IMG/VR virus record: IMGVR_UViG_3300041409_000599
Location: 1 to 64,000 of that record
Source: a virus
DNA length: 64,000 nucleotides
Reading direction: 5' to 3' (one strand)
The notes beneath the pieces are model-generated. The model saw only the letters and a list, made by a program, of their open reading frames with translations. It did no database searches and was not told where the DNA came from. Every line of letters starts with the position of its first letter. Position 1 is the stretch's first letter. Made by a program: the position numbers and the translations under genes. Positions 55,986 through 58,420 of this stretch are shown here, piece by piece.

Positions 55986-56294
55986 CTAAACTTTTGGGCT
56001 TTCCGCGACTCCGGCCGCGTGAACCTCATCCTTGGTGGGAGCGCGCAGGACCGCGAACGCGCCGACAATCAAATTCGATCCCTGCTCTTTCTGTCCGCAG
56101 CAGGTCAGCAGGACGCCACCGGCAAGGATAAGCACCATCCATACCGTGATAGAAACGCGGTTGACGGCATCGACCAACGGAGCGAGAAACGCCTGCTGTC
56201 TCAGCCGCAGGCCAAAGAAAAGCAGGAAGATGATCGTCAGGAAAACGCCCCAGATCACGTTGTGCAGCGCATTGATAGCTTGTACAAAGTTCAT
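55986..56294 (-). CDS. Holin-like membrane protein
   Basis: 2-3 TM segments near the endolysin. Confidence 0.5.
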   Translation of the reverse strand: MNFVQAINALHNVIWGVFLTIIFLLFFGLRLRQQAFLAPLVDAVNRVSITVWMVLILAGGVLLTCCGQKEQGSNLIVGAFAVLRAPTKDEVHAAGVAESPKV

Positions 56295-56815
56295 CCTTCA
56301 ATCCTCTCTTCCTTCGCGCAACCAAGCCCCAAGATGAAATCCTTCTGACTTTGCAGGGCTAGGCCAAAATGCTCTGCTTCCATGAGCGCGTTCTCAGGCG
56401 TCCATCCGTTCACCAGAACTCGATAAGCCGCCACCATGCAGCCAGTGCGTCCTTGCCCTTGCTCGCAATGGATGAAGACTGGCTCACGCGCCGCCTGCAT
56501 GATCGACTGCAATTCCATTACGTCCTTATTGGACGGCGCTGTGTTGTCGATTATCGGAATGTTGAACGCCACGCTTCCAACCGCCCGAACAACCGCATCC
56601 TGTGAGCGTTCGGCGCATAGATTGACTGCGGTCGTAATTCCCATCGCTCTGAGCCCGCTCAGGTGCTTAGCGTCTGGCCAGGAGCCACGATAGAGCTTTC
56701 CGGGGTCCACTTCCGCGATATACCAATGGATCGGGTAAAGAGGTCTGCCGGCTAGTTTTTCCAGCCGCCCGAATTCAGCAGCTATTGCGCTCTCAGCCTT
56801 ACCCAGCAGCGTCAT
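56291..56815 (-). CDS. Cys-dependent dual-specificity/tyrosine phosphatase
   Basis: LYRGSWP...VNL...PVFIHCEQGQGRTG (CX5R). Confidence 0.9.
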   Translation of the reverse strand: MTLLGKAESAIAAEFGRLEKLAGRPLYPIHWYIAEVDPGKLYRGSWPDAKHLSGLRAMGITTAVNLCAERSQDAVVRAVGSVAFNIPIIDNTAPSNKDVMELQSIMQAAREPVFIHCEQGQGRTGCMVAAYRVLVNGWTPENALMEAEHFGLALQSQKDFILGLGCAKEERIEG

Positions 56816-57372
56816 TGCTTGATCTCCAGCGCGGGATGCAGTTCAACTCCGTTGGGTGCAACCCCTTTTTGCCCATGAATCTTGTCGAAGAACAGAACCC
56901 CGCTGGCCTTCACGCGCACCGGATTTGCCAGAGTCTTAAATGTCGGCGATGCTTTGCCGTCCAGCGAATCGATGAACGCGCGGAGTTGCGTGAGCGCTTC
57001 CTTGTAGTTCCCCGGTGCACATAAGGGGTCAGGAATCTCCATGATCATGGTTTGCTTCGGCTTGCCGGGTGTGCTCAATACAACGTGGTAATCGCCGTCG
57101 CCGGAGTTGGTGCTCTTGTTAAAAGCCTCATGCTTGTAGCCGATGATGTCGGCTACGACCTCATAGACCTGCTTCTCTGAGTCCTGCCGCGGCAGGGTGT
57201 TGCCAATCTTTACCGGCGGCTTCAGCTTCCGCATCTCGCCAACCGTGGCCGATACCGGCTTCATGTGGATCTCGACCGTCGCCTTGTCGCGCAGGTCTTT
57301 CACGTCGGTACGTTCCACTCCACATTGCGCGAAGGCAGCGCCGCTAAGCGCCAGCAGTAGAAGTATTCTCAT
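56812..57372 (-). CDS. Exported OB-fold-like protein
   Basis: Signal MRILLLLALSGAAFA; DGDYHVVL...EIP...GVLFFD..H...ELHP. Confidence 0.65.
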   Translation of the reverse strand: MRILLLLALSGAAFAQCGVERTDVKDLRDKATVEIHMKPVSATVGEMRKLKPPVKIGNTLPRQDSEKQVYEVVADIIGYKHEAFNKSTNSGDGDYHVVLSTPGKPKQTMIMEIPDPLCAPGNYKEALTQLRAFIDSLDGKASPTFKTLANPVRVKASGVLFFDKIHGQKGVAPNGVELHPALEIKQ

Positions 57373-57797
57373 TGCGTGTAACTCTCCATCTTGGCCAGCA
57401 CTTCGTCGGGATACGCCGCATTGCCGCCGCCATTCCATGCCAGCAGCCCCTTGCGCACATCGCCGCCGTGGGCATCCAGCTTGGCTTTCAGGTGTCTGCA
57501 TCCCCAGTCCAGGCCCGTATCTGGATCACAGAGGCTTGCCATCTTCGCGTTGAATCCCATCTCTCGCGCTGACTGACCCATGAGCTGCATCAGTCCCCAT
57601 GAGATTGAGCGCGCAACTGTTTCTGTTTGTCCCAGGGCAAGAGGTTCGACGTACCGCTTTTGAAACGCAGGCTCATAGCGGATGGCCCATGGCGCCCAGT
57701 TCGATTCCTGCTCAACTACCGCACAGACAAGAGCGCCATTAAGATCATGAAGGCGCGCAAAGTATCGGGCTTTGTCTTTCAGATCGTCTATGGTCAT
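57369..57797 (-). CDS. Endolysin, SLT lytic transglycosylase
   Basis: AVVEQES, AIRYE, WGLMQ, AWNGG...Y. Confidence 0.9.
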   Translation of the reverse strand: MTIDDLKDKARYFARLHDLNGALVCAVVEQESNWAPWAIRYEPAFQKRYVEPLALGQTETVARSISWGLMQLMGQSAREMGFNAKMASLCDPDTGLDWGCRHLKAKLDAHGGDVRKGLLAWNGGGNAAYPDEVLAKMESYTQ

Positions 57798-57880
57798 TCT
57801 GGAATCACCGCAGGGACAAGCTTTGTCAGTTTCATCGCCAGCCAGGTCGCCCAATCAAGCGACTGCTGAAACGTCATGAT

Positions 57881-58420
57881 TTAAATGGAGCTCCCGGATG
57901 GATTTTCACCACCGACCTCTTGCTTCAATGGCAAGTGCTCTGCCGGAGCTGCGGGAGCGTTAAACGGCCACATTCCTGTGGCCTCTGCCGTACACATCGT
58001 CCGCGCCGATTGCGATGTACTTACGAAACTGGCTCCCCGCTGACCATTCAAGGCCACTTCAGCGCTAGCAACCGAAGGCGGGGAATAACGCCACAGCTTG
58101 TAATTAGCTAGTGGCAAACTGTTTTCTTGCGTCAATGGCTCGGTCGCAACCGCCGACGTGCCAAACTGCGGATTGTCCGGATCGATGAACTGAAGGTTGG
58201 GAATACCAGCGTCCCGCAGCTTCCCAATCGCCTTGTTGAGGGACTTCTCACTTAATGCCTGCAGCACGATCACCCGCGGGATGCCGATGGCGCTGCATCC
58301 GAAATTCCTGAAGTAGACGCCGGCCATATGGAACACGGCATGGTTCGCCTGGACAATCTGCTGCTCGACCGGCAATTCATTGCGTACGAAAATGTAGATT
58401 GTGCGCTCGTCAATGTTCAT
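57881..58420 (-). CDS. PTH2 (peptidyl-tRNA hydrolase type 2)-fold protein with a tail encoded by the tRNA-like region
   Basis: YIFVRNELP..QQIVQANHA...VIVL...L...GI....F.DPD....TSAVATEP...YKLW. Confidence 0.75.
   Translation of the reverse strand: MNIDERTIYIFVRNELPVEQQIVQANHAVFHMAGVYFRNFGCSAIGIPRVIVLQALSEKSLNKAIGKLRDAGIPNLQFIDPDNPQFGTSAVATEPLTQENSLPLANYKLWRYSPPSVASAEVALNGQRGASFVSTSQSARTMCTAEATGMWPFNAPAAPAEHLPLKQEVGGENPSGSSI
57886..57958 (-). tRNA. Non-canonical tRNA-like gene, anticodon UUG (Gln), within the PTH2-like ORF
   Basis: GCTCCCG-CA-GCTC-CGGCA-GAGC-A-CTTGC-CATTGAA-GCAAG-AGGTC-GGTGG-TGAAAAT-CCATC-CGGGAGC-T-CCA: full cloverleaf, but C8, A33 and an atypical T-loop. Confidence 0.75.
58030..58084 (-). 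ncRNA. D-armless mini tRNA-like element ending in CCA
   Basis: TCCCCGC-CTTCGGT-TGCTAGC-GCTGAAG-TGGCC-TTGAAT-GGTCA-GCGGGGA-G-CCA. Confidence 0.55.

What the first reader, a model, noticed from the sequence alone, without database searches (positions are those of the whole stretch)
57881..58420. PTH2-fold gene whose reading frame runs through two CCA-ending tRNA-like structures: possible nonstop-mRNA-controlled rescue or tRNA-decoy system
Seen: the PTH2-like domain ends at YKLW. Six nt later, still in frame with no stop, a 55-nt element begins (58084-58030) with a 7-bp acceptor stem, T-like arm, discriminator and CCA. Two more hairpins follow, then a complete 73-nt cloverleaf (57958-57886, anticodon UUG, CCA). 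The stop codon comes 2 nt after the last CCA, so the last ~67 codons are structured RNA. Known: RNase P cuts 5' of tRNA-like acceptor stems, and arfA is regulated by being translated from a cleaved nonstop mRNA that tmRNA tags for degradation. Inference: processing at 58084 would leave a nonstop PTH2 mRNA, so the protein would accumulate only when trans-translation is saturated or blocked, while releasing tRNA-like RNAs that could be decoys for anticodon nucleases or substrates of the PTH2 fold. Caveat: the Lys of the Pth2 GKxxAQ motif is absent, so the protein may bind rather than hydrolyse.
Basis: partly seen in the sequence, partly recalled or inferred. Interest (0 to 1): 0.88.

Follow-up and report, generated by a model that had tools for sequence, protein, structure and literature searches.

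The report
Stopless phage PTH2 gene abutting tRNAs
A soil-phage gene for a peptidyl-tRNA-hydrolase-like protein has no stop codon of its own and runs straight into a conserved 55-nt tRNA-like minihelix and then a tRNA, a layout shared by many relatives, which suggests that cutting out the RNAs controls how the protein is made.

Summary
ORF 57881-58420(-) has a folded PTH2-type domain (aa ~5-113). Foldseek's top 13 hits are all Pth2. The domain is followed by a disordered 67-codon tail.

The tail is two RNA genes.
- A CCA-ending acceptor/T-arm minihelix lies at 58084-58030.
- A non-canonical tRNA lies at 57958-57886 (Rfam 42.3 bits, cut-off 29).

In three homologous loci and five further homologous proteins, the minihelix follows the domain after two codons with no stop between. 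It shows compensatory pair changes. Its DNA is better conserved (73-96%) than the domain's (48-69%). Its 3' strand CAGCGGGGAGCCA is read in two different frames in different relatives. It is therefore conserved as nucleic acid, not as peptide.

In the wider family (717 representatives), many ORFs also run into translated tRNA genes, while others stop right after the domain. Cultured jumbo phages carry the domain in or near tRNA arrays with a normal stop.

My best reading is that RNase P excises the RNAs. That leaves a non-stop message ending exactly at the domain's end, as in arfA and brfA. This part is inferred, not shown. Tolerated read-through is a close rival. The function of the minihelix is unknown.

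Earlier scan notes cover only this same stretch.

The parts
58085..58420 (-). PTH2-fold domain coding part (aa 1-112, ...LANYKLWRY)
   Evidence: AF2 model: residues about 5-117 folded (10-residue pLDDT means mostly 69-88, dipping to 59 and 57), last strand 108-113. Foldseek top 13 hits are all Pth2, E 4e-5, TM to target 0.61-0.66. Profile hit to PDB PTH2 24bt_A at E 0.005. 27 of 78 family members hit Pfam PF01981.
57881..58420 (-). Whole 179-codon ORF; codons 113-179 overlie RNA genes
   Evidence: Tail 118-179 has pLDDT <50. The ORF frame is the only one of three without stops across the 199-nt RNA region.
58030..58084 (-). 55-nt tRNA-like minihelix: acceptor UCCCCGC/GCGGGGA, 7-bp hairpin with loop containing CUAG, 5-bp T-like arm, discriminator G, CCA
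   Evidence: Fold. Over 4 loci, 96% of cells are paired versus 37-55% when the partner is slid, and 3 pairs have changes on both sides. Covariance model scores 85-87 bits. DNA identity is 73-96% versus 48-69% for the domain. No Rfam family matches.
57959..58029 (-). 71-nt spacer with two hairpins, specific to this lineage
   Evidence: Fold z -2.06. Absent in L001, L002 and L030, where the tRNA follows the minihelix after 1 nt. Present in a 92.5%-identical soil contig.
57886..57958 (-). Non-canonical tRNA (anticodon UUG, A33, C8, 5-nt D loop, T-loop UGAAAAU, U73, encoded CCA)
   Evidence: Rfam RF00005 at 42.3 bits. ARAGORN calls it only when relaxed. Cloverleaf over 4 loci: 21 pairs, 7 with compensatory changes.
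57881..57883 (-). TAA, first in-frame stop, 2 nt after the tRNA's CCA

Best explanation
This is a compact phage module of three genes on one strand.
- A divergent PTH2-fold protein: the Pth2 GK lysine is replaced by Gln, while Gln-x-x-His-Ala and the Asp are kept.
- A previously undescribed 55-nt CCA-ending acceptor/T-arm minihelix RNA.
- A tRNA with an aberrant anticodon loop.

The protein gene has no stop codon of its own. The minihelix starts at the codon after the last strand of the domain, so codons 113-179 are RNA genes that happen to be read through. They are not a selected peptide. This much is shown.

What follows is inferred. Both RNAs have the features of bacterial RNase P substrates: a 12-bp acceptor/T stack, U at -1 and an RCCA 3' end. 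They would therefore be excised from the transcript. Cleavage at 58084 would leave a message ending ...UGG CGU UAU with no stop. Its product is exactly the folded domain (112 aa).

Ribosomes reaching that end would be handled by tmRNA-SmpB. The protein would then accumulate mainly when trans-translation is saturated, for example when a tRNA-cleaving defence stalls ribosomes. This is the logic known for arfA and brfA. The protein would then act on peptidyl- or N-blocked aminoacyl-tRNA, and the co-released tRNA would replace a host tRNA.
For: Shown:
- The PTH2 fold.
- The tRNA.
- The minihelix with covariation.
- The minihelix is the best-conserved DNA of the locus.
- Its 3' strand CAGCGGGGAGCCA is read as QRGA in the window and L002 and as SGEP in L001 and L030. 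It is therefore conserved as nucleic acid.
- All 9 close homologues have the domain, two codons, then the minihelix, with no stop.
- Where the ORF finally stops is haphazard. In L002 it stops at the tRNA's own U8-A9-G10 TAG. In the window, L001 and L030 it stops after the tRNA.
- Of 146 family representatives, 94 have tails longer than 20 aa. At least 29 of these carry a strict translated D-arm plus T-loop signature, and 31 stop within 8 aa.
- A 92.5%-identical soil relative shows 19 of 28 listed differences at third codon positions in the domain, but 1 of 5 in the RNA region (the list is partial).
- The host bin has type-A RNase P RNA and SmpB.

Precedent:
- ArfA and BrfA are made from messages truncated inside the ORF and are repressed by trans-translation (PMC10107115, PMC6881298).
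- PTH2 in jumbo phages has been proposed to act in ribosome rescue after tRNA cleavage (PMC7824862).
Against: - There are no RNA data. Cleavage, a non-stop message and tmRNA dependence are all untested.
- The catalytic Lys of Pth2 is absent, so hydrolase activity is uncertain.
- Relatives in cultured phages have ordinary stops (ME3, GAP32, Arash, RsoM2USA, CM1, phiKp_21). In phiKp_21 a tRNA lies 13 nt after the stop. The protein therefore does not need non-stop expression.
- A ribosome following RNA polymerase could read through before the RNAs fold.
- The tRNA's elbow nucleotides are atypical in all four loci (no GG in the D loop, or G55/A56). This could weaken RNase P recognition of the tRNA, though not of the minihelix.
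- The tmRNA gene was not found in the 76%-complete bin.
- Host assignment rests on binning only.
Confidence: 0.4

Rival explanations
1. Tolerated read-through. The PTH2-like gene lies directly against RNA genes in a compact phage transcript. Ribosomes coupled to transcription read through to the next chance stop. The disordered tail is harmless, and the RNAs are excised afterwards. The missing stop has no regulatory meaning.
For: - The stop position varies with frame and indels.
- The tail is predicted disordered.
- Relatives with normal stops exist, sometimes 13 nt from a tRNA.
- At 57% GC, chance stops are relatively rare (my inference).
Against: - A stop needs only 3 nt, yet it is absent in all 9 close homologues and in many deep branches of the family.
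- The RNA begins exactly at the domain's end.
- Once RNase P has cut, later ribosomes must run off the end, so some non-stop translation seems unavoidable.
Confidence: 0.33
2. Translation-gated RNA release. Ribosomes translating through the minihelix and tRNA keep them unfolded. When translation of the ORF slows, as under a translation-targeting defence, the RNAs fold and are excised. They then act as a replacement tRNA and as a decoy or competitor for enzymes that attack tRNA acceptor ends or CCA tails.
For: - The ORF frame is the only open frame across 199 nt in the window.
- The anticodon differs between close relatives (UUG, UCU, ACG and an 8-nt loop), with A33 in two of them. This matches the pattern described for phage tRNAs that evade anticodon nucleases (PMC10264068).
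- Defences that cut CCA tails exist (PMC12851939).
Against: - There is no evidence for any decoy target.
- In L002 and probably P0004-6 and P0008, the frame closes at the start of the tRNA.
Confidence: 0.12
3. The RNA-like elements are relics with no present function: a decaying tRNA array, or an attP copy of a host tRNA.
For: - The window's tRNA has changed C8, A33 and its T loop.
- ARAGORN at default settings rejects it.
- The minihelix looks like a tRNA that has lost arms.
Against: - All stems are intact, with compensatory changes across loci whose protein domains are only 46-57% identical.
- The minihelix is more conserved than the coding DNA.
- No host tRNA resembles either element.
- In the viral contigs for which contig coordinates were given, the module lies away from contig ends.
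Confidence: 0.03
4. The tail is a genuine conserved C-terminal peptide (RYSPPS.ASAEVALDGQRGA), and the RNA folds are incidental.
For: Y112, S113, P114, P115, S119 and V122 are invariant in the 9-sequence protein alignment.
Against: - The 3' half is read in two frames (QRGA versus SGEP) while the nucleotides stay the same.
- Amino-acid changes track base-pair partners.
- AF2 gives pLDDT <50 for the tail.
Confidence: 0.02

Closest known systems
Peptidyl-tRNA hydrolase 2 (PTH2, PF01981; archaeal/eukaryotic Pth2 and Bit1; PTH2 of jumbo phages such as RaK2 ORF188)
   Same: Same fold. It shares the V-R-x-[DE]-L, Q-x-x-H-A, Asp and T-A-x-A-x-x-P motifs. Phage PTH2 and its link to tRNA biology are already noted in PMC7824862 and PMC3622015. 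Relatives sit in or near phage tRNA arrays.
   Different: The window's protein matches no Pfam model at E <= 0.1. The GK lysine is replaced by Gln. The gene has no stop and overlaps RNA genes.
arfA (E. coli) and brfA (B. subtilis): rescue factors made from messages truncated inside the ORF
   Same: A structured RNA element lies inside the 3' end of the ORF, before the stop. The truncated product would be the complete functional domain. The protein belongs to the peptidyl-tRNA and ribosome-rescue sphere (PMC10107115, PMC6881298).
   Different: The truncating element would be an RNase P substrate (a tRNA-like RNA), not an RNase III hairpin or an intrinsic terminator. The excised piece is itself a conserved RNA. 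The module is phage-borne. Nothing has been shown experimentally.
tRNA punctuation of polycistronic transcripts (mitochondria; RNase P cuts in bacterial and phage operons)
   Same: tRNA-shaped elements directly abut coding sequence, so excision would define the mRNA end.
   Different: Here the reading frame continues through the tRNA. Completion of a stop codon by tailing is not known in this setting. UA precedes the last leader U in all four loci, which I only note as a curiosity.
Minimal RNase P / CCA-enzyme substrates, and the tRNA-like domain of tmRNA
   Same: An acceptor stem stacked on a T arm, an RCCA end, and no anticodon/D domain.
   Different: An extra 6-7-bp hairpin sits at the junction. 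There is no G3-U70 pair and the discriminator is G. Rfam's tmRNA and all other families give no match.
Phage tRNAs with anticodon-loop changes that evade tRNA-targeting defences (PMC10264068)
   Same: A phage tRNA with intact stems but altered loop positions (A33). The anticodon differs between close relatives.
   Different: It is a single tRNA tied to a PTH2-like gene, not part of an array. The elbow nucleotides are also atypical. No nuclease has been identified.

Membership tests
PTH2 (PF01981) | Pth2 alpha/beta fold | tested here: met
   Foldseek top 13 PDB hits are all Pth2, E 4e-5, prob 1.0, TM to target 0.61-0.66. The model is confident for about aa 5-117.
PTH2 (PF01981) | Match to the Pfam model above its cut-off | tested here: not met
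   The window protein matches no family at E <= 0.1. 27 of 78 family members hit PF01981 at E <= 0.01. The phiKp_21 relative passes the cut-off, 26.9 versus 23 bits.
PTH2 (PF01981) | Catalytic Lys of the GK motif and the Asp of DAG. Their roles are taken from my knowledge of Pth2 mutagenesis, not tested here. | tested here: not met
   In the profile alignment to 24bt_A and 2zv3, the Lys aligns to Q20/Q21. The Asp aligns to D80, and Q24-x-x-H27-A28 is kept.
PTH2 (PF01981) | Hydrolysis of peptidyl-tRNA | not testable with these tools
   Needs an enzyme assay.
tRNA (RF00005) | Cloverleaf scoring above Rfam's gathering score | tested here: met
   42.3 bits versus 29. Homologous loci score 59.2 and 53.4 bits. 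Over 21 pairs, 7 have compensatory changes.
tRNA (RF00005) | Conserved nucleotides U8, U33, G18G19 and T54-Psi55-C56 | tested here: not met
   The window has C8, A33 and T-loop UGAAAAU. L001, L002 and L030 lack GG in the D loop. ARAGORN at default settings finds nothing in the window.
tRNA (RF00005) | Aminoacylation and decoding | not testable with these tools
   -
arfA/brfA-type non-stop-regulated genes | An element inside the ORF truncates the mRNA before the stop | tested here: inconclusive
   The minihelix has the features of an RNase P substrate, and the host bin has type-A RNase P RNA. No end mapping was possible.
arfA/brfA-type non-stop-regulated genes | The truncated product is the functional form | tested here: inconclusive
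   A cut at 58084 leaves aa 1-112. The model's last strand is 108-113, and relatives with stops end 1-5 aa after the equivalent position.
arfA/brfA-type non-stop-regulated genes | Protein level repressed by tmRNA-SmpB | not testable with these tools
   SmpB is present. The tmRNA gene was not found in the 76%-complete bin.
D-armless or amber-suppressor mini-tRNA | A 7-nt anticodon loop with CUA, and tRNA-like dimensions | tested here: not met
   CUAG is invariant in 4 loci, but the loop is 9 nt in L001 and L030. One soil relative has a loop without CUAG. There are no connector nucleotides, so by my geometric estimate the CCA-to-loop distance is far below that of a tRNA. ARAGORN -mt does not call it at default settings. 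There is no TAG recoding in the window.
tmRNA tRNA-like domain | Match to RF00023 and the G3-U70 alanine identity pair | tested here: not met
   No Rfam match other than tRNA at E <= 10. Pair 3-70 is C-G and the discriminator is G.

The most novel reading that the evidence does not exclude
A family of phage PTH2-like genes is built to be expressed from tRNA-punctuated, stop-less messages. RNase P excision of an in-frame tRNA-like RNA both releases a new class of small CCA-ending minihelix RNA and turns the protein into a sensor of the cell's trans-translation capacity. The result would be a phage-encoded back-up for translation under tRNA-targeting defence. The minihelix might act as a decoy or competitor for enzymes that attack tRNA acceptor ends.
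Probability: 0.25. Interest if true: 0.88.

Novelty: new variant of a known kind. Interest (0 to 1): 0.72.

Why it matters
Three things follow if the module works as read here.

- It would add a third, independent way of making a non-stop message for a translation-rescue-type protein: RNase P at an in-ORF tRNA mimic. It would also be the first such case in a virus.
- It defines a conserved, structured small RNA, the CCA-ending minihelix. This RNA is in no RNA family database and is physically tied to a tRNA-end enzyme fold.
- It shows that gene callers systematically extend this family's ORFs through tRNA genes. That matters for annotating phage genomes, and for anyone who reads the resulting C-terminal tails as protein.

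The module is small enough to test directly in E. coli.

Tried and rejected
Tools and searches that gave nothing:
DNA for P0002-P0006 and for the 146 family representatives could therefore not be fetched. Their RNA elements are inferred from translations only.
- The metagenome DNA-pattern scan gave only three chance matches.
- The viral pattern scan returned 39 stretches. Only L013 (the same contig as L001) and L030 were real.
- A second pattern found only ordinary tRNA arrays.
- No RNA holder was listed for this stretch. The laid runs were DNA contigs only, so there is no evidence on expression or ends.
- The whole-window Rfam run at gathering threshold returned nothing, although the local run scored the tRNA at 42 bits.
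- The promoter/terminator scan found nothing useful in the module.

Ideas rejected:
- TAG recoding of this phage: TAG ends many long ORFs, and making it sense gains no more than making TAA sense.
- attP or a copy of a host tRNA: no host tRNA resembles either element.
- The minihelix as a decoding amber suppressor: see the membership test.

Ideas considered but left untested:
- The invariant UAU before the minihelix could yield UAA after cleavage one nucleotide upstream plus A-tailing.
- The palindromic GCUAGC loop could mediate kissing dimers.

Complex prediction was not used, because it does not take RNA partners.

Full report
**What is there.**
ORF 57881-58420 on the minus strand encodes 179 aa. 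It lies between small ORFs of unknown function and an SLT-type lysozyme gene (57369-57854). A dual-specificity phosphatase-like gene lies further downstream.

The window is almost the whole of a 63.6-kb contig binned into a 76%-complete soil MAG. Relatives of the module lie on IMG/VR viral contigs, so the setting is a phage or prophage.

The AlphaFold model, built from an alignment of 9 sequences, is confident for residues about 5-117 and gives pLDDT below 50 for 118-179.

Foldseek against the PDB returns only Pth2 structures in its first 13 places (Bit1 1q7s, 1wn2, 2zv3, 3erj, 1rlk, 1xty). E is about 4e-5 and TM to target is 0.61-0.66.

The window protein hits no Pfam model. However, 27 of 78 family members hit PF01981, and a family profile finds a solved PTH2 chain at E 0.005.

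In that alignment the V-R-x-[DE]-L, Q-x-x-H-A and Asp positions are kept. The GK lysine falls on Gln20/Gln21. The protein is therefore a divergent PTH2-fold protein whose chemistry is open.

**The tail is RNA.**
Six nucleotides after the W110 codon, a 55-nt element (58084-58030) begins. It folds into a 7-bp acceptor stem, a 7-bp hairpin and a 5-bp T-like arm, followed by G-CCA.

After a 71-nt spacer with two hairpins, Rfam's tRNA model matches 57958-57889 at 42.3 bits, against a gathering score of 29. Every stem is intact, but several nucleotides are atypical: C8, A33, a 5-nt D loop and T-loop UGAAAAU.

ARAGORN finds the tRNA only at a relaxed threshold or in -mt mode. The stop TAA comes 2 nt after the encoded CCA.

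**Relatives.**
A word-based protein search gave only five relatives. Scans of viral and genome collections gave three loci with DNA:
- L001 and L030, both viral contigs.
- L002, from a Candidatus Angelobacter MAG.

In all of them the domain is followed after two codons by the same minihelix and then, 1 nt after its CCA or UCA end, by a tRNA. The tRNAs score 59.2 and 53.4 bits in Rfam for L001 and L002. ARAGORN calls L001, L002 and L030.

No stop codon separates the domain from the minihelix in any of the nine sequences.

**Nucleic acid, not peptide.**
Three observations settle this.
- The T-like arm differs by one nucleotide between two subtypes. As a result the invariant 3' strand CAGCGGGGAGCCA is translated QRGA in the window and L002, but SGEP in L001 and L030.
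- On four sequences, 96% of cells pair, against 37-55% when partners are slid. Three pairs change on both sides. RNAalifold predicts the same structure independently.
- Pairwise DNA identity is 73-96% for the minihelix, against 48-69% for the domain-coding DNA.

A covariance model of the minihelix scores 85-87 bits in the four loci and finds nothing else in the 4.25-Mb genome.

The tRNA cloverleaf shows 7 of 21 pairs with compensatory change.

A 92.5%-identical soil contig gives weaker support. It carries 19 of 28 listed differences at third codon positions in the domain, but 1 of 5 in the RNA region. Only 40 of its 69 differences were listed.

**Where the ORF ends is accidental.**
In L002 the frame closes at the tRNA's own U8-A9-G10 (TAG). 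The tails MLP*, SMLA* and TLA* of P0004-6 and P0008 fit the same reading, but this is inferred from protein only. In the window, L001 and L030 the frame runs to a stop after the tRNA.

**The wider family.**
A profile search of 1.84 billion representatives finds 717 proteins at E <= 1e-3. The domain end could be mapped in 146 of them.
- 31 stop within 8 residues of the domain end.
- 94 have tails longer than 20 residues.
- At least 29 of those tails carry a strict translated-tRNA signature, with D-arm strings such as VAQLREH or SSEKEH followed by T-loop strings such as GSxP.
- 24 have Y-S-[PSA] directly after the domain, as here.
- In some the tRNA itself starts two or three codons after the domain.

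Running into a tRNA-shaped gene without a stop is therefore a recurrent trait of this family, not an oddity of one contig.

In cultured phages the domain is present at 30-39% identity in 27 records. I looked at seven of these loci.
- Salmonella phage Arash carries it inside a tRNA array, annotated as peptidyl-tRNA hydrolase.
- In Klebsiella phage phiKp_21 it lies between tRNA-Leu (31 nt upstream) and tRNA-Gly (13 nt downstream).
- All seven loci have an ordinary stop.

**How it probably works.**
The minihelix has a 12-bp acceptor/T stack, U at -1 and an RCCA end. That is what bacterial type-A RNase P recognises; this is established knowledge, not tested here.

The host bin has such an RNase P RNA (286 bits) and SmpB (177 bits). 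Its tmRNA gene is not in the assembly.

Cleavage at 58084 would end the message at codon 112, which lies in the last strand of the modelled domain. That makes it a non-stop mRNA whose product is the bare domain.

ArfA and BrfA are both made from messages truncated inside the ORF and are kept low by trans-translation (PMC10107115, PMC6881298). Phage PTH2 has been proposed to help rescue ribosomes after tRNA cleavage (PMC7824862).

I therefore give about 0.4 to the full model of excision, non-stop message and trans-translation-dependent level. I give about 0.33 to plain tolerated read-through and about 0.12 to translation-gated release of the RNAs.

The role of the minihelix is unknown. Its loop always contains CUAG in the four loci, but one soil relative lacks it. 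Its geometry also argues against decoding.

The tRNA's anticodon differs between close relatives: UUG, UCU, ACG and an 8-nt loop, with A33 in two of them. This fits the arms-race picture drawn for phage tRNAs (PMC10264068), but no nuclease is identified.

**Limits.**
- There are no expression data.
- Only four loci have DNA. Family-wide statements rest on translated tails.
- Host assignment is by binning.
- Earlier notes of this scan are first-reader notes on this same stretch and add no independent evidence.

Noticed in passing
L047 577-650 and about 1489-1815 (genome G101, contig C62): A relative of the PTH2-like gene has an in-frame TAG at residue 42, with homology continuing beyond it. A canonical suppressor tRNA(CUA) lies about 850 nt upstream. 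This may be amber read-through or TAG recoding in that prophage.
   Followed up: partly
L050 998-1071 (Acinetobacter phage ME3), L052 2798-2872 (Salmonella phage Arash), L048 1362-1433(-), L047 577-650: A tRNA with anticodon CUA lies within about 1 kb of the PTH2-like gene in 4 of the first 6 further loci I scanned; 4 more phage loci scanned later had none (4 of 10). In Arash the record annotates that tRNA as tRNA-Phe, whereas ARAGORN reads cta. The association is unexplained.
   Followed up: partly
L058 1015-1800 (Stenotrophomonas phage CM1): Here the PTH2-like domain is the C-terminal part of a 261-aa ORF. The N-terminal ~150 aa contain an H-D-I-G-K string reminiscent of HD phosphohydrolases. 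Pfam did not confirm any N-terminal domain.
   Followed up: partly
G000:C201 (L049 ORF 1348-2028): A second, divergent paralogue of the domain lies in the same bin (E 1.5e-19). It has a ~60-aa protein-like C-terminal extension and no tRNA, and it sits upstream of a large ORF that looks like a DNA methyltransferase.
   Followed up: no
window 1-64000: Rfam cmscan of the whole window at gathering threshold reports nothing. The same tRNA scores 42.3 bits when 1.6 kb is searched with lax filters. Fast filters can therefore hide atypical tRNAs.
   Followed up: yes
G000:C161:17960-18300: There is a second, weaker RNase P RNA match (133 bits) besides the main one on C308 (286 bits). This may be a sign of a mixed bin.
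   Followed up: no
window 56291-56815(-): A 174-aa dual-specificity phosphatase-like protein (several DSP/PTP Pfam families, E 1e-15 to 1e-9) lies just downstream of the lysozyme gene in the phage.
   Followed up: no
window 56812-57501(-) versus 57369-57854(-): The 229-aa ORF and the SLT lysozyme ORF overlap by about 130 nt in different frames. One of the two starts is probably miscalled.
   Followed up: no
family representatives P0044, P0048, P0069, P0071, P0073 (tails): Several tails translate T arms whose loop reads UGC... instead of UUC... (for example D-A-G-A-N-P). The X4/X5 soil relative of the window has UGCAAAU. G at position 55 may be a hallmark of these tRNA-like elements.
   Followed up: no
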